A stretch of DNA of 64,000 nt from an uncultured bacterium (GTDB lineage Bacteria; Zixibacteria; MSB-5A5; GN15; FEB-12): contig CBDVDR010000014.1 in assembly GCA_965372795.1 (NCBI GenBank), positions 23,391 through 87,390 of the forward strand, written 5' to 3'. Shown in pieces: positions 27,001 to 33,000 of this stretch. A program made the position numbers. Numbering within the stretch: position 1 is the first letter of the stretch; the number at the start of each line of letters is the position of its first letter.

Positions 27001-30000
27001 ATGAATGTTATTAAAACTGAATTTCCAATTAAAATTGACGGGAAAATCAATGATCTTGAATGGGAAGGTGCAACTTCAATTACATCATTTTTTGAAAGAG
27101 ATCCGGGAGAAAACATTGCTCCACAAGTAAATACTGAAACATTTATTACATATGATGATAATAATCTATATGTAAGTTTTAAATGTTATGATGATCCTTC
27201 GACTATTCGAGCATCATTGACTCAGCGGGATCAATACTCCGGGAATGATGAAGTTGGCGTTTTTATTGACACGTATGGTGATGCTTCGGTAGCATACATG
27301 CTGTTTGTAAATCCTTTAGGAATTCAAAAAGATTTATTATGGAATTCAATAACAGGTAGTGATACCGGCTATGATTTAATATGGGAATCCTCAGCTGAAA
27401 TAACAGATTTTGGTTATCAGGTTGAAATGGCAATTCCTTTTTCAAGTTTCAGATTTCCAAACAAAGATGTACAGTCATGGAAAATTGATTTTAGAAGAAA
27501 CCATCCGCGAGAAAGTTATCATGAGTACGCCTGGGCAGCTCACGACAGGAATGAACAATGTGGTCCTTGCCAGTGGGGAACTATTGATGGAATAACTTCT
27601 GTTAAGCCCGGTAAAGGTATCGAATTTTTGCCAGCATATGTCGGCAATCAGAATCATGAATTTAATGGTAATAGCTTAGAGAATTTAGGCTTTGAAAGTG
27701 AAGTTTCCCTGACTGGAAAATATGCAATCAACTCAGATGTAACTCTTGAAGGATCCATCAATCCTGATTTTTCACAAATTGAAGCAGATGCTGCTCAGAT
27801 AGATGTTAACAGCACATTCAGTTTGTTCTTCCCCGAAAGACGTCCTTTTTTCCAGGAAGGTGCGGATATTTTTAGAACTATGTTTAATTCGTTTTATACC
27901 AGAACAATTTTTGATCCTCAATACGTTGCCAAATTAACCGGTCGACCGGGTAAATTCCGGTTTGGATTTATTTCTGCTTATGATGACTCTTCTGCTTATA
28001 TAATACCTCTTGAAGAAAGTGATATTACTTTCAAAGCCAGTAAAAGTTATGTAAATGTATTGCGCGGTTTAAAATCTATTGGTCAAAATTCACGAGTTGG
28101 CTTTATGCTTAACGACCGTCGATATGAAGGTGAGGAAGGATCTAATACTATTTTTGCACTTGATGGTGATTTTAGCATAACAAGATCCCTCAGATATGAT
28201 ATGCAGGTTATTTATTCTTATACTAAAGAAGGGTCTGGTGATATAATACCTTATGACACTTTAATAAATGTAGATACCCTTTGGAACAATGGTTCCGTTT
28301 CGGAAATTGATAGTACCTACGAAGTAACCAAATTTGATTATGATGGTGATTATACTTTAAATTTTGACGATGAGTCGTATGGCGGGATTGCTATGATTTC
28401 AAGATTAAGGTATGCAACCAGAAATTTATTTATTCAAGCTGGCTATAACCAACTTGATCCAACCTATAGAACTCTTACGGGATATGATCCGGTAAACAAT
28501 CACCGTTCGGCAGACTTTTATACACAATATACTATTTTCCTAAATGAAGGATTGTTTGAAAGAATAACTCCTCAAGCATCAGGGTTTAACCGTTGGAATA
28601 AGCAATCCGGTGAGAAAAAAAATGAGAATTTTAATCTTGGTATAAATACAAATCTTAGACTGGCTCAAACATCGGTCAATATAAATATTGATAATAATTC
28701 AGAAATTTATGCAAATAAATCATACGATGACATGAAAAATATAAACTTGAGTGTGAATACTCAGGTTAGCAGCAATTTAGGGCTATATGCATCAGCCAGT
28801 TTTGGTGAAGGAATTGCTCGCGGAACAAATTTGTTGAGTGACAGAAATTCATTAAGTACCGGTTTTGAATTAAAACCGATTGATAATTTAAATATCGAAC
28901 CAAGCATCAGATTCGTTCGTGGCCTTGATAATGAAAATTCTGATGTTGAACTTTTTAAACAAATTGTGGCAAGAACAAGAGTGAGTTGGCAAGTAAACCG
29001 TAAACTTTCACTTCGTTTGATTGGCCAATTTGTTGACTCAAAAAATTCTTTTGATATTGGTGAGTCCGAATATGGAATAACAAAAGGCAAATCTTTTGAT
29101 ATTGACCCATTGGTTACTTACCGGCTTAATCCGTTTACTGTCTTTTATCTGGGCATGGTAAATAATTATGTTAAAGGGACCTATACTGAAAACTTAAATC
29201 AATATAATCTTTACTCTTATGATACCAGAGAAAACCAGCGGAAGTTTTTCTTTAAACTGCAATATCTTTTCCAAACTTAACGTACTCCCTCTCATTTTTT
29301 TATATAAAACCCGGATTGATTATCAGTTCGGGTTTTTTTATTGCAAGTATGCCGTAGTTCATATAATTTTCTTTAACTTTTAATCGGAGATACTAATTGA
29401 ATATTCTTGCAATGGAACCGTTTTATGGCGGTAGCCATAAAGCCTTTCTTGATGGTTGGATCAAACACAGTAACCATCGATGGAACCTGCTTACCCTTCC
29501 GGACATAAAATGGAAATGGCGGATGCGACATTCAGCAATAACTTTTGCCGAACAAGCCAACCATTTATGGGAAAAAGGTCAGCGATGGGATTTAATATTT
29601 TGTTCTGACATGTTGAATCTTGCTGAATTTTATGGATTAACTAATAATCATATACAGAAAATTCCTTCTGTAATATATTTCCATGAAAATCAATTAACTT
29701 ACCCGGTAAGAAAAAATGAAGAACGAGACTATCACTTTGCAATGATTAACTTTACTTCATGTTTAAAAGCAGATCAAATTTGGTTTAATTCAAATTTTCA
29801 TCGCAATTCATTTTTGACTGCCTTAAAAATATTTTTGGAAAGAATGCCCGATAATAAACATCTTGATAGAATTAAAGAGATTGAAGATAAATCTATAATA
29901 TGTTCTCCCGGAATAGAAAAAATAAAACTGAAAAAGAAAAAGCAGACAAAGCCGGTTCACATTATTTGGGCAGCCAGATGGGAACATGACAAAAATCCGG

Positions 30001-33000
30001 AAGATTTTTTTACAGCTCTCAAAACAATTAAAGGTAAAGGAATTCAGTTCAAATTATCAGTAATAGGTCAACAATATAGTAATTCACCCTCTATTTTTTC
30101 AGAAGCAAAAACATATTTTAAAAACGAAATTGTTAATTGGGGATATCAAAACAGCTATTCTGAGTATATAACTGCCCTTTCAGAGGCTGATATCTTAGTT
30201 TCTACAGCAAATCATGAATTTTTCGGCATTTCGGTCATAGAAGCCGTCGCACAGGAGGTTTTTCCTATTCTACCAAATAGATTATCCTACCCTGAACTTT
30301 TTCCTTATGATAAATTTGAAGAGTGTTACTATAATAATAGTATTAAAGACCTAATCAACAAACTACTCCAAGTTATTGACCTACACAGCGTTGGCAGAAT
30401 ATCCTTAGATCCGGGAAAATTCAGCGAACAGATTTCACCTTTTTTCTGGATTCAACAAACTCCAATTTTTGATAAATTATTATCTTCTCAGCAATAAAAG
30501 TAAATCAATGAACTTTTTTTCACAATATGGCTAATTTTTATATGACAGTTGTTGACTCAACACTTTGAAACAAATATACTTTACACGTTCGCGCAGTTAT
30601 TACAACAAGTGGATACAGTGATATTAAAATTGAAAAAATAACTTTTTATTAAGTATGCGAATAATAGATATAATAATCTAATTTATTGTTTAAATAAAGA
30701 AATGGAGGTTCTATAGTAAATTTCGTTATTTTTTTTATAAGACAGCAAAGAGCACATCAACATGAATGTTGATTTTATCAACATAAAAAAATTACTCATC
30801 GAGTTTACAAATGGAGGATGGAATGAAATTTAAACTCGCAATTATGTTAACTCTGTTAGCATTACTCTTTATTGCTGGATGTGATAAAGAAGAAAATTTC
30901 TATGACGGCTTATGGACTGACGGCCGCGTTATTGGCTCTGTTCATGGAATCGTTACAGATAATCAAACTAATGCCCGTATGGGAGATGTTACAGTAACTT
31001 GGGCATCACAAGGTAAAATATTTTCGACCATAACCAACAGTCTTGGATATTATGCCATTACAGATCTTTCATCAGGTCATTACGAAATCTCCTTCTCTGG
31101 ATCTTCTGGTTACGCAATTGGTATTCTCCATATGGATATTCCAGAACTTGACGCAATTGGCATTGATGAATATCCAACTAATGAAGATTTTCATTGGAGT
31201 GAATCTGAAAATATGTCTATGTATATGCTCAACGCCGGATTAACCGGTATGGTATATGCCGTACTTGACGATGAAACAGTAGTTCCAGCTGTTGGGGTTA
31301 CGGTTGTAGCTGATTTTTCAGGATTCGGTGTATCAGTTGAAGACTATACTGTCGTAACTGATGCTAATGGAGCTTACACTTTTACAGCTCTCCCGGCAAC
31401 CTTGAATGTTGATCTGAGAACCCTTCCATTTTACGATGGAGTGTATAGTTTTGCAGTAGCAACACAAAATGATGTGACTCTGCATAATGGTGGTACTGTG
31501 ACAGCGGCTGATTTCATGCTGCAGGTTGCAGCAATGATACCGTTTATAGTCCAAAATAATATTGCCAATAATGATTTTGGTCTCACAGATGACATCATGA
31601 TCACTTTCTCAAAAGCTATGGTAACAGAATCTTTTGAGATAACACTTGCCCCAACTGTCAAAGCTGTTGGTGCTGAAATTGGATTTGTAGCTACCTGGGC
31701 TGATGATGTTGCCCTTACTATTAATCCTGGAACAGCTCTTAATGCGAGCACAAGCTACACTCTATCAATGAGTGGAGTATCTCAGGATGGAAACGCATAT
31801 ACTGAATCAATTGCGTTTACTACAATTGATGGCTTGGAATTCCTTTATACTAATGCTGAACGAGCAATTGGTCTTTTTGATGAGTTCCCGGTTAATGGAA
31901 ATATTGAAATAACATTCAATATGGAAATTGATCTGACAAACATCAATGGTCATGTAACTATGACTGAAGATGGTGATCAGGTTGCATTGGATGCTACTGC
32001 TTCTGCCGATCTTATGACTCTCATAATTGACCCGGACTATGACCTGGAACCAGGCATGGATTACATAGTCGATTATGAAGTATATTCAAATATCCCTGGT
32101 GACTTTGATACTAAAACATTCACTATAACAACTTCCGATGATGTTGTTGTTCCAGGTCAGGTCATGAATTTTGCTCTTGATATGGGAGCAGGATATGAAG
32201 CTGACTATAATGACGCCGGTTGGGGATTTCAATGGGATGCGGTTGCAAATGCAACTACTTATAGAATCTATGCCAGAGATACCTATAATAACTCTGACTT
32301 TGTAGAAGTCTTTGATTTTACAGGTAATGATGTTGATCTGACATTTAACAGTGGTTTTGGTTTACCAGCCGAGTTTGACTATTTTGAGGATGATGGCATT
32401 CAAACTCCTTTAGCCTATGGAACCAAAGTTATCTTTAAAATTGTCGCAGAAAATGCCGCCGGCATGGGAATCTTCTCTGATTCTATTATGATCGGCGATG
32501 AAACAGCTCCTAATTATAATCAAAATAGTAGTCAGGAAAATTCTGCCAATAACTCTCTTGGTACCGAAGATATTGTCTTTACTATTGAATTTGATGCAAA
32601 TGAACCAATGGCACAAGAAGACCCAACCTTTATTTTTGGTGATAATGGTTCAGGTTATGTAACTTCCGCCTCAGACATTACTACATCTTGGGAAACCTTG
32701 TCTGAAGGTGAATTTACCTTTACAATTCCTGCCGGTCAGGATGCCTCGGGTGATACCGTATTCATTACTGCCAACGATGGTAGCGGTAATTCTTCTGCTG
32801 ACACTATCACATTGGTTCTTGAAGGTACAAACTTCTCAACAGCCGCTGATATAGATTATAACACAACATCAATTGCATTTACCTGGACAGACTATAACAA
32901 TTATGCAGACGATTATATGATCTATGTTAAAGATGATGGACTGAATCCAGAGGATACAGTAGTTGTAGGACCATTTGCAACTGGCAGTGGCGCTGTGAAT

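What a model noticed while it worked through the whole genome (the two positions that open the first line are those of the whole stretch)
29397..30497. Bacterial homolog of the vertebrate tRNA-queuosine mannosyltransferase QTMAN
Gene C14:52787-53887 encodes a 366-aa two-domain glycosyltransferase whose N-terminal half matches, end to end, the family of QTMAN/GTDC1, the enzyme that puts mannose on queuosine-34 of vertebrate tRNA-Asp; the genome also holds the full bacterial queuosine pathway. I read it as a tRNA-queuosine glycosyltransferase, so that this bacterium (and the many uncultured bacteria with the same gene) would carry a sugar-modified queuosine, a modification so far reported only from animals. 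If true it moves the origin of glycosyl-queuosine into bacteria and offers a small bacterial enzyme to make and study glyco-Q tRNA.
Evidence so far: Pfam: QTMAN_N PF12038 residues 2-173 = profile 1-168 of 168, E 7e-64, followed by Glycos_transf_1 174-328 (E 2e-15). Queuosine genes here: QueC, QueF-like and PTPS/QueD on C3, QueG C1:76008-76988, TGT on C9 (PF01702, E 2e-154, call 118), QueA C20:32462-33484 (E 7e-122, call 150); tRNA-Asp(GUC), Asn, His, Tyr genes present. The family is missing from all 14 well-known control genomes (E. coli, B. subtilis, B. thetaiotaomicron ...) but present in 16 of 41 genomes of this order, one copy each, open frames 364-411 aa, and in 7119 database proteins at E<=1e-30, the best 120 at 49-59% identity, mostly Planctomycetota and Deltaproteobacteria, named 'DUF3524', 'tRNA-queuosine alpha-mannosyltransfera [...]
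(Added by a program. Inside this text positions count along the whole contig: contig position 23,391 is position 1 of the stretch shown here. "Call 12" and the like, gene names such as g00115 and contig names such as C1 are that model's own, and its searches are not shown. The text may have been shortened before it was handed on; [...] marks where a part breaks off. The agent that wrote the report below was given it as the finding of a first reader that could run no searches.)

Follow-up and report, generated by a model that had tools for sequence, protein, structure and literature searches.

The report
Bacterial relative of queuosine mannosyltransferase
This gene is an intact bacterial relative of the animal enzyme that puts mannose on the tRNA base queuosine, so the bacterium may sugar-coat its own tRNA, but this rests on sequence likeness and no experiment has tested it.

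Summary
Window 29397-30497 (+) encodes a 366-aa two-domain GT-B glycosyltransferase with a full-length QTMAN_N domain (E 6.8e-64) and a GT4-type donor domain.

It is close to animal QTMAN. It is 46% identical to a fish QTMAN over the C-terminal core, and 81 of 123 columns conserved in bacteria are the same in at least 5 of 6 animal proteins. The genome has TGT, QueA, QueG, QueC, QueF and tRNA-Asp(GUC).

New here:
- 258 neighbours of homologues show no glycan gene cluster.
- 47 diatom-type relatives are fused to an RNA 2'-O-methyltransferase domain.

My attempts to falsify the reading had no power. QueA and QueG are near-universal whether or not the gene is present. The gene is also not mutually exclusive with GluQRS. 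A reported phage link to deazaguanine genes could not be reproduced.

The best reading, at about 0.5, is a cytoplasmic retaining glycosyltransferase acting on queuosine in tRNA. The sugar and the target tRNA are unknown.

Pfam and NCBI already name the family, and this scan noted it at least seven times on other DNA. It is a new member of a known kind, and the hypothesis is easy to test.

The parts
29397..30497 (+). QTMAN-family glycosyltransferase gene, 366 aa, TTG start, stop included
   Evidence: one copy in the genome
29400..29915 (+). N-terminal acceptor-side domain, QTMAN_N (PF12038), residues 2-173
   Evidence: profile 1-168/168, E 6.8e-64; AF2 model shows a Rossmann-like beta/alpha pattern
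29916..30380 (+). C-terminal donor-side domain, Glycos_transf_1 (PF00534), residues 174-328
   Evidence: E 1.7e-15; Foldseek best matches are retaining GT4 enzymes
29508..29528 (+). Family-specific basic/aromatic motif KWKWRMR (residues 38-44)
   Evidence: Invariant or nearly so in 28 bacterial proteins. K38, W39, W41, R42 and R44 are identical in 6 of 6 animal proteins.
29676..29705 (+). Family-specific motif YFHENQLTYP (residues 94-103), followed by a lower-confidence loop
   Evidence: H96, E97, N98, Q99 and P103 are identical in 6/6 animal and 6/6 SpoU-fusion proteins. pLDDT is 74 for residues 101-110.
29976..29993 (+). RWEHDK (residues 194-199), the presumed donor-phosphate-binding Arg/Lys of GT4 enzymes
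   Evidence: R194, D198 and K199 are invariant in bacteria, animals and fusions. The role is inferred from general GT4 knowledge (recalled).
30216..30242 (+). E274-x7-E282, the EX7E motif of GT4 enzymes
   Evidence: Both Glu are conserved in bacteria, 6/6 animals and 6/6 fusions. The motif name is recalled, not from a call.
29386..29389 (+). GGAG, a likely ribosome-binding site 7 nt before the TTG start
   Evidence: read from the sequence
29306..29336 (+). Terminator-like hairpin plus T-run between the upstream gene and this gene; the gene probably has its own transcript
   Evidence: 14 pairs, 5 GC; a consensus match only

Best explanation
The gene encodes a soluble cytoplasmic GT-B (GT4-type, retaining) glycosyltransferase, orthologous in family to animal QTMAN/GTDC1.

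Most likely mechanism: the C-terminal domain binds a nucleotide sugar through R194/K199 and E274-x7-E282. The family-specific N-terminal domain (GGSH, KWKWRMR and YFHENQLTYP motifs) binds the anticodon loop of a queuosine-bearing tRNA. The sugar is then passed with retention of configuration to a hydroxyl of the cyclopentenediol of Q34, giving a hexosyl-queuosine.

Shown: the domain structure, intact motifs, close likeness to animal QTMAN, presence of the Q pathway and of GUN tRNAs, and a stand-alone gene.

Inferred: the acceptor is Q-tRNA, and the chemistry is retaining.

Unknown: which sugar (GDP-mannose by analogy), which of the four Q-tRNAs, and what the modification does. The gene is an accessory one, found in 12 of 61 genomes of the order.
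For: - Full-length QTMAN_N at 215 bits plus a GT1 domain.
- 46% identity to a fish QTMAN over 112 aa of the C-core. The N-domain aligns at 37%, counting a 41-column insert in the fish gene model.
- 81 of 123 columns that are >=90% conserved in 28 bacterial proteins are identical in >=5 of 6 animal QTMAN-family proteins, including all N-domain motifs.
- In the tree, animals plus bacteria are split from the diatom fusion clade with SH-aLRT 100.
- The AF2 model has pLDDT 88.3. Its nearest solved folds are retaining GT4 enzymes (MshA, PimA, BshA, PglA, SenB) at 11-15% identity. Retaining chemistry fits the alpha-mannoside of manQ (abstract of PMC12518689 in the listing).
- The substrate is present: TGT, QueA, QueG, QueC, QueF and tRNA-Asp(GTC).
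- The test that could have refuted the reading did not. QueA was found in 12/12 PF12038+ genomes of the order, 47/50 PF12038+ genomes of other phyla and 31/32 PF12038+ Planctomycetota.
- No conserved neighbour was found in 76 sources (75 loci plus the window).
- 0 of 133 immediate neighbours is a GT-A/GT-B glycosyltransferase or a polysaccharide export gene. Among 125 second neighbours there are one GT2 and two LpxB.
- 47 of 73 relatives of a diatom protein carry QTMAN_N + GT1 + SpoU RNA 2'-O-methylase in one chain.
- One metagenome protein, 39% identical to this one, is fused to a TrmO tRNA methyltransferase domain.
- No signal peptide or membrane-like segment: the maximum 19-residue Kyte-Doolittle mean is 1.42.
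Against: - No experiment exists, and no paper on bacterial glycosyl-queuosine was found.
- The co-occurrence tests carry no weight. QueA is found as often without the gene: 48/49 in the order and 117/119 in Planctomycetota. QueG is in 59/61 genomes of the order.
- GluQRS, which I recall modifies the same Q34 of tRNA-Asp in E. coli, is not excluded. GluQRS-like matches occur in 11/32 PF12038+ and 38/119 PF12038- Planctomycetota (Fisher p 0.83). Above the curated cut-off the counts are 1/32 and 17/119 (p 0.12). A strict tRNA-Asp target would therefore have to share its site in some genomes.
- RNA and translation genes are not enriched among neighbours, at 11 of 258.
- The TrmO fusion is a singleton. 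No second one appears among the best 150 of 1.84 billion representatives.
- One Chloroflexota homologue carries a partial LysM match, and another is fused to a GH2 beta-mannosidase-like part.
- The median pI of 28 homologues is 6.1, which is not basic.
- The SpoU fusions belong to a divergent, apparently eukaryotic subfamily.
- Several near fold matches act on small molecules (MshA, BshA, SenB, and a tetrahydrobiopterin glucosyltransferase).
Confidence: 0.5

Rival explanations
1. It is a GT4 glycosyltransferase that kept the family fold but glycosylates something unrelated to queuosine, such as a small cytoplasmic metabolite, a protein or a lipid. On this view the animal tRNA function is a later specialisation.
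For: - The nearest solved folds include small-molecule enzymes: MshA, BshA, SenB and a tetrahydrobiopterin glucosyltransferase.
- Distribution is patchy and accessory, at 12/61 in the order and 32/151 in Planctomycetota.
- RNA genes are not enriched nearby.
- The median pI is acidic to neutral.
- Odd fusions exist, to GH2, a sulfotransferase, asparaginase II and a partial LysM.
Against: - In GT-B enzymes the N-domain normally varies with the acceptor (general knowledge, recalled). Here it is the best-conserved part and shares its motifs with the animal tRNA enzyme.
- No NCBIfam model of a known GT comes near its cut-off. BshA scores 17 bits against a cut-off of 274.
- No pathway genes travel with it.
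- The recurrent fusions are to RNA methyltransferase domains.
Confidence: 0.27
2. It acts on a 7-deazaguanine compound other than Q34 in mature tRNA. Candidates are free queuine or queuosine, a precursor such as epoxy-Q or preQ1 in tRNA, or a deazaguanine in DNA.
For: - Earlier notes of this scan report QTMAN-like transferases inside phage 7-deazaguanine DNA-modification clusters (AI notes, unchecked).
- A glycosylated pyrrolopyrimidine natural product with its own transferase is in print (title and abstract of PMC7439116, listing).
Against: - I could not reproduce the phage link. The only phage hits cover the C-domain alone, at 30% identity. They lie beside GlmS and a deacetylase, and the record has no PF12038 match.
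- The viral contig scans found nothing real.
- No dpdA-type or biosynthetic cluster genes were found among the 258 neighbours.
- QueA and QueG are present, so full Q is expected in tRNA.
Confidence: 0.12
3. The protein is a catalytically silent or regulatory remnant of the family.
For: None specific, apart from its dispensability in most relatives.
Against: - All donor-side and family motifs are intact and conserved.
- All 12 order-level copies have open frames of 364-408 aa without stops.
- The AF2 model is confident.
Confidence: 0.03

Closest known systems
Animal QTMAN (GTDC1), tRNA-queuosine alpha-mannosyltransferase. Zhao et al. 2023, Cell; the paper is not held and is known here only through citing papers.
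   Same: The domain order is the same: QTMAN_N plus a GT4 C-domain. All conserved motifs are shared. Identity to a fish protein is 46% over the C-core, and 81/123 conserved columns are shared with animals. The Lys of RWEHDK probably corresponds to human K296, whose K296A change abolishes manQ (passage of bioRxiv 10.64898/2026.06.28.735034). That mapping is recalled and was not tested.
   Different: This protein is bacterial and compact, at 366 aa, without the long inter-domain insert seen in the animal sequences. Its activity, sugar and target tRNA are untested. The host makes Q de novo, whereas animals salvage queuine (stated in the PMC11755703 passage).
Diatom QTMAN_N-GT1-SpoU fusion proteins (e.g. 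P0134 from Nitzschia inconspicua, P0153 from Cylindrotheca closterium)
   Same: They have QTMAN_N and GT1 domains with HENQ, FNS, RxxxDK and EX7E conserved.
   Different: They form a divergent subfamily (QTMAN_N 54-100 bits; 59/123 columns shared) and carry a C-terminal RlmB/TrmH-like RNA 2'-O-methylase domain that the window protein lacks. They are uncharacterised.
GluQRS (YadB), glutamyl-queuosine tRNA-Asp synthetase of bacteria
   Same: It is the one bacterial enzyme I know of that decorates Q34 further. The function is recalled; the NCBIfam model is named queuosine_YadB.
   Different: It is an unrelated fold and chemistry, a truncated GluRS. It is absent above its cut-off from this genome and from 61/61 genomes of the order sample. 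It co-occurs with the QTMAN family in some Planctomycetota.
Retaining GT4 enzymes with solved structures: MshA (3c48/3c4q), PimA (2gej), BshA (3mbo, 5d00), PglA (8dqd), SenB (8jjq)
   Same: They share the GT-B fold, with Foldseek E 7e-12 to 2e-9 and TM up to 0.73, and the donor-side motifs.
   Different: Identity is only 11-15%. Their acceptors are small molecules, lipids or glycans, and their N-domains lack the QTMAN_N motifs.
QTGAL (B3GNTL1), tRNA-queuosine galactosyltransferase of vertebrates
   Same: It also glycosylates Q34, on tRNA-Tyr (abstract of bioRxiv 10.64898/2026.06.28.735034).
   Different: It belongs to a different glycosyltransferase family (recalled). It was not searched for in this genome.

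Membership tests
QTMAN/GTDC1 family (PF12038 + GT4 C-domain) | Full-length QTMAN_N domain above Pfam's gathering score | tested here: met
   215.2 bits against a cut-off of 25; profile 1-168 of 168
QTMAN/GTDC1 family (PF12038 + GT4 C-domain) | GT-B C-terminal domain with intact donor-binding residues (R/K pair, EX7E) | tested here: met
   Glycos_transf_1 E 1.7e-15. R194, K199, E274 and E282 are conserved in bacteria, animals and fusions. GT-B model with pLDDT 88.
QTMAN/GTDC1 family (PF12038 + GT4 C-domain) | Family-specific acceptor-domain motifs shared with experimentally linked animal proteins | tested here: met
   GGSH, KWxWRxR, YFHENQLxYP, D111 and FNS are identical in 6/6 animal sequences. 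Overall, 81/123 conserved columns are shared.
QTMAN/GTDC1 family (PF12038 + GT4 C-domain) | Groups with animal QTMAN rather than with other GT4 families | tested here: met
   Animals plus bacteria are one side of a branch with SH-aLRT 100 against the diatom fusions. No NCBIfam GT model comes near its cut-off.
QTMAN/GTDC1 family (PF12038 + GT4 C-domain) | Substrate available: Q34-tRNA made in the same cell | tested here: met
   TGT, QueA, QueG, QueC and QueF are above cut-offs. tRNA-Asp(GTC), Asn, His and Tyr genes are present.
QTMAN/GTDC1 family (PF12038 + GT4 C-domain) | Catalyses transfer of mannose from GDP-mannose to Q34 of tRNA-Asp | not testable with these tools
   Needs an enzyme assay or tRNA mass spectrometry.
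QTMAN/GTDC1 family (PF12038 + GT4 C-domain) | Presence depends on the Q pathway (phyletic nesting) | tested here: inconclusive
   PF12038+ genomes with QueA: 12/12, 47/50 and 31/32. PF12038- genomes have it as often: 48/49 and 117/119.
Cell-envelope glycan GT4 transferases (LPS, EPS, capsule) | Lies in a cluster with other glycosyltransferases, sugar-nucleotide enzymes, or a flippase/polymerase | tested here: not met
   No conserved neighbour in 76 sources (75 loci plus the window). 0 of 133 first neighbours is a GT-A/GT-B transferase. Among 125 second neighbours there are 1 GT2 and 2 LpxB. The window neighbours are unrelated.
Cell-envelope glycan GT4 transferases (LPS, EPS, capsule) | Match to a curated equivalog model | tested here: not met
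   The best is 26.8 bits against a cut-off of 385.
Low-molecular-weight thiol GT4 enzymes (BshA/MshA) | Equivalog model above cut-off | tested here: not met
   BshA scores 17.2 bits against a cut-off of 273.7. The fold likeness is at only 11-15% identity.
Known anti-phage defence components | Match to a PADLOC model or to Pfam GT4-conflict above cut-off | tested here: not met
   PADLOC gave 0 families. PF20706 scores 24.1 bits, below its cut-off of 26.

The most novel reading that the evidence does not exclude
Bacteria of several phyla carry a sugar-bearing queuosine in tRNA made by QTMAN orthologues. The homologues seen here come from Planctomycetota including anammox genera, Zixibacteria, Ignavibacteria-like lineages, Acidobacteriota and Lentisphaerota. 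This would be the first glycosylated tRNA base in bacteria.

The patchy, accessory distribution would then suggest a conditional role, such as tuning NAY-codon decoding. [quoted passage not shown] The protective role is my speculation.
Probability: 0.45. Interest if true: 0.75.

Novelty: new member of a known kind. Interest (0 to 1): 0.45.

Why it matters
Glycosylated queuosines are described in the papers I could read only from animal tRNAs. If the bacterial orthologues do the same chemistry, a hypermodified base thought to be animal-specific would exist in widespread environmental bacteria.

A compact 366-aa enzyme without the animal insert would then be a convenient tool for making glyco-Q tRNA and for structural work. 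No QTMAN structure is in the PDB copy.

The test is cheap: nucleoside mass spectrometry or heterologous expression.

The value is tempered. The idea follows directly from existing Pfam and NCBI names, and nothing computed here goes beyond homology, context and domain fusions.

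Tried and rejected
- **Phage/deazaguanine link** (lead from earlier notes). tblastn of the protein against 50,697 phage records gave 5 jumbo-phage hits to the C-domain only. 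The hit gene lies beside GlmS and a deacetylase, and the record has no PF12038 match. The N-domain alone gave one chance-level hit. The IMG/VR scan with the alignment gave 0 relatives. A back-translated motif gave 2 hits, neither in an ORF of the right strand. The link was not reproduced here, which is not evidence against it.
- **Co-occurrence with QueA and QueG.** There was no power, because both are near-universal.
- **Mutual exclusion with GluQRS.** Rejected.
- **TrmO fusion as a Rosetta stone.** It is a singleton; the best 150 of 6190 hits show no second fusion. A TrmO gene two genes away in L026 is on the opposite strand.
- **Neighbourhood.** No conserved partner was found.
- **Sequencing runs.** None was listed for the gene, and no RNA holder was listed.
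- **PADLOC.** No match.
- **Papers not held.** Zhao et al. 2023 and the 2024 review of 7-deazaguanines, PMC10966956. What they say about bacterial homologues I could not see. No supplements were consulted.
- **Actinomycetota test.** Clusters of the family that are commonest in Actinomycetota would be the best test of dependence on TGT, but I had no way to reach those genomes.
- **In-frame TGA in the QueG match of this genome**. This is an alignment overrun; other genomes show TAG, TAA or TGA at the same end.

Full report
**Observation.**
- Window 29397-30497 (+) is an open frame of 366 codons that starts with TTG.
- GGAG lies 7 nt upstream of the start, at 29386-29389. Homologues begin MxILALEP. 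The TTG start is therefore better supported than the ATG at codon 6 used by the database copy P0002, which is 361 aa.
- Pfam gives QTMAN_N (PF12038) over residues 2-173 against the whole 168-position profile, at E 6.8e-64 and 215 bits. It also gives Glycos_transf_1 over residues 174-328, at E 1.7e-15.
- NCBIfam has nothing near a curated cut-off, and PADLOC has nothing.
- A terminator-like hairpin at 29306-29336 follows the upstream gene, and 313 bp separate the gene from the next one. It probably has its own transcript.
- The flanking proteins look like secreted or envelope proteins. They carry CBM9_1 + DUF5916, CarboxypepD_reg + Big_5, and a TSP_3 repeat, and they give no hint of function.

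**The genome.**
- G000 is 3.35 Mb in 69 contigs and 98.65% complete, with one copy of the family.
- Above curated cut-offs it has TGT, QueA, QueG, QueC and QueF.
- It has 46 tRNA genes, including Asp(GTC), Asn(GTT), His(GTG) and Tyr(GTA).
- GluQRS is not found. The best match, at 223 bits against a cut-off of 277, is a 483-aa GluRS-size frame.

**How close it is to the animal enzyme.**
- The near-length search listed only bacterial proteins. 7078 scored at E<=1e-5 among 8000 scored, and the best 120 were 49-58% identical. Their names were 'DUF3524', 'tRNA-queuosine alpha-mannosyltransferase domain-containing protein' or 'glycosyltransferase involved in cell wall biosynthesis'.
- The search among longer proteins returned 16 hits. 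These included animal family members from a sea urchin, a nemertean, a fish and three tapeworms.
- BLASTP against the fish protein gives 46% identity over 112 residues of the C-terminal core. It gives 37% over the N-domain, where 41 alignment columns are an insert in the fish gene model.
- I aligned 28 bacterial, 6 animal and 6 fusion proteins. Of the 123 columns that are at least 90% conserved among the bacterial rows, 81 are identical in at least 5 of the 6 animal rows.
- The shared columns include G11-G12-S13-H14, K38/W39/W41/R42/R44, Y94-F95-H96-E97-N98-Q99-L100, Y102-P103, D111 and F130-N131-S132. They also include R194, D198, K199, H273-E274 and E282.
- The acceptor-side domain is thus the best-conserved part. 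In GT-B enzymes that domain usually varies with the acceptor (general knowledge, recalled), so this argues for a conserved acceptor.
- A preprint reports that K296A in human QTMAN abolishes manQ (passage). This lysine is probably the K of the invariant RWEHDK. I could not test the numbering, because I had no human sequence from a tool.

**Fold.** AlphaFold2 on the 28-row alignment gives pLDDT 88.3 and pTM 0.85, with two Rossmann-like halves. The best Foldseek matches in the PDB are retaining GT4 enzymes: MshA, an LPS transferase 5n7z, SenB, PglA, PimA and BshA. Their identity is 11-15% and TM reaches 0.73. No QTMAN structure is in the sequence or fold libraries. Retaining chemistry fits the alpha-mannoside described for manQ (abstract of PMC12518689, listing).

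**Context across relatives.**
I kept the best 80 loci, from Planctomycetota, Zixibacteria, Ignavibacteria-labelled MAGs, Acidobacteriota and Lentisphaerota.
- With a simple ORF caller, 75 of these loci plus the window gave a full-size homologue. All-against-all clustering of 965 ORFs found no conserved partner. The commonest neighbour cluster occurs in 8 of 76 sources, at varying positions and strands.
- I scanned 133 of the 142 immediate neighbours with Pfam. Nine, from L078-L082, were left out for the size limit. None is a GT-A or GT-B glycosyltransferase or a polysaccharide export gene. One is a class-A penicillin-binding protein.
- Eight of the 133 are RNA or translation genes: two RlmN-like, two TadA-like, RsmE-like, SmpB, PheT and an RF-1 domain protein.
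- Of all 125 second neighbours, one is a GT2-TPR protein, two are LpxB and one is a Kdo/WaaP kinase. Three are RNA-linked: PheS, a beta-CASP RNase and TrmO.
- The gene is therefore a loner, as tRNA-modification genes usually are, and it is not part of glycan clusters. RNA genes are not enriched around it, at 11 of 258.

**Domain fusions.**
- Six of the 16 long hits join QTMAN_N, GT1 and a C-terminal SpoU_methylase domain. The SpoU part is RlmB/TrmH-like and below equivalog cut-offs.
- A search with the Nitzschia protein listed 73 proteins, of which 47 carry both PF12038 and PF00588. The named ones come from the diatoms Nitzschia, Cylindrotheca and Bacillariaceae.
- This recurrent fusion to an RNA 2'-O-methyltransferase domain links the family to RNA outside animals. 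However, the subfamily is divergent (QTMAN_N 54-100 bits; 59 of 123 columns shared) and seems eukaryotic.
- One metagenome protein, P0194, is 39% identical to the window protein over 330 residues and ends in a TrmO_N tRNA methyltransferase domain. A full search with P0194 gave no second such fusion among the best 150 of 6190 hits, with 1034 hits at E<=1e-30. It is therefore an anecdote.
- Other single fusions point elsewhere or nowhere: a GH2 beta-mannosidase-like part, a sulfotransferase, asparaginase II and a partial LysM.

**Tree.** With the SpoU fusions as outgroup, the six animal rows form one clade (SH-aLRT 99). The 81 bacterial rows form a weakly supported sister group (84). The window protein is sister to a Zixibacteria MAG protein (99). 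The bacterial rows are only the 80 best relatives of the query, and the tree came from a quick search. No direction of transfer can be read from it.

**Attempts to refute by distribution.**
- In a sample of 61 genomes of the order, 12 have the family: 7/22 in family f1 counting G000, 5/5 in f2, 0/14 in f3 and 0/20 in f4. All copies have open frames of 364-408 aa.
- In the same sample QueA is found in 60 of 61 genomes, and above its cut-off in 12/12 carriers. QueG is found in 59 of 61. GluQRS is above its cut-off in 0 of 61.
- I searched 50 of the 80 carrier genomes from other phyla, chosen before any result for contig length and spread of taxa. QueA is above its cut-off in 47 of them. Of the three without it, two have TGT and one (2.3 Mb, completeness not given) has neither. 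GluQRS is above its cut-off in 0 of 50.
- In a sample of 151 Planctomycetota, for which I asked for at least 90% completeness, 32 carry the family and 148 have QueA. One carrier, G214, has no QueA match.
- In that sample 49 genomes have a GluQRS-like match at E<=1e-75, and 18 are above the cut-off.
- The overlap with carriers is 11/32 against 38/119 non-carriers (Fisher p 0.83). After dropping four GluRS-size frames it is 8/32 against 37/119 (p 0.66). Above the cut-off it is 1/32 against 17/119 (p 0.12).
- These genomes are relatives of one another, so the tests overstate independence.
- In sum, the reading survives the test that could have killed it, but that test has no discriminating power because the Q pathway is nearly universal in these lineages. 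There is no complementary pattern with GluQRS. If the bacterial enzyme targets tRNA-Asp, it shares that site with GluQRS in some genomes.

**Literature.**
- 'DUF3524' occurs in 0 papers of the library.
- I saw the 12 papers with QTMAN and queuosine as listings, and some as passages. They treat animals only.
- Searches combining queuosine, glycosyltransferase, bacterial and manQ gave 0 papers. Related searches gave nothing on bacterial glyco-Q.
- The founding paper (Zhao et al. 2023) and the 2024 review of 7-deazaguanines are not held, so I cannot say whether they discuss bacterial homologues.

**Earlier notes of this scan.** At least seven earlier findings on other genomes describe the same family and reach the same cautious verdict. 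Others report QTMAN-like transferases in phage deazaguanine clusters, which I could not reproduce from this protein.

**Verdict.**
- The protein is a bona fide member of the QTMAN family. At about even odds it is a tRNA-queuosine glycosyltransferase with unknown sugar and tRNA target.
- The main rival is an unrelated acceptor (about 0.27). Next is another deazaguanine substrate (about 0.12).
- It is a new member of a known kind. The hypothesis is attractive and cheap to test, but databases already imply it and this scan has noted it repeatedly.

Noticed in passing
P0132-P0137, P0143-P0181, P0183 and P0186 (proteins): 47 distinct proteins join a QTMAN-like glycosyltransferase to a C-terminal SpoU-type RNA 2'-O-methyltransferase domain. 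The named ones are from diatoms (Nitzschia, Cylindrotheca, Bacillariaceae). They appear to be an uncharacterised bifunctional RNA-modification enzyme.
   Followed up: partly
P0194; L026:3391-4068 (-): One metagenome protein fuses a bacterial-type QTMAN homologue to a TrmO tRNA methyltransferase domain. In a Zixibacteria MAG a TrmO gene lies two genes from the homologue, on the opposite strand. No further fusion was found.
   Followed up: yes
P0122 (1244 aa): A full QTMAN-like transferase is fused to a GH2 beta-mannosidase-like region (Glyco_hydro_2_N2, Mannosidase_ig, Ig_mannosidase). It is a single protein and a possible hint at mannose, or a chance fusion.
   Followed up: no
G048:C23:225773-226288 (-) and G048:C23:230687-231715 (+): In one genome of the same family, the QTMAN homologue and queA lie about 4.4 kb apart on one contig. 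This is not so in the window's genome, where queA is on contig C20.
   Followed up: no
window 23644-24030 (-) and 24200-26302 (-): There is a BlaI/CopY-type repressor (Penicillinase_R, E 2e-32) and a 700-aa protein with MshEN, receiver and DUF4388 domains. L071 has the same MshEN/DUF4388 type of protein two genes from its homologue.
   Followed up: no
window 33694-35964 (+): A 756-aa protein has a thrombospondin type-3 repeat. It gives sub-threshold matches to 'Omp28-related selenoprotein' and MYXO-CTERM MtsC models, over the repeat only.
   Followed up: no
G000:C3:219666-219992 (-) and G000:C3:220259-220879 (+): queF and queC lie head to head on contig C3 of the window's genome.
   Followed up: no
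Planctomycetota sample: GluQRS-like genes of 308-450 aa occur in roughly a third of 151 Planctomycetota. Many score just under the NCBIfam cut-off (257-276 bits against 276.7), so the curated threshold may miss true GluQRS in this phylum.
   Followed up: no
L042:11398-11913 (-) and L055:11125-11652 (-): In two Planctomycetales MAGs a TadA-like tRNA adenosine deaminase gene lies next to the QTMAN homologue, on the opposite strand. This is probably a lineage quirk.
   Followed up: no
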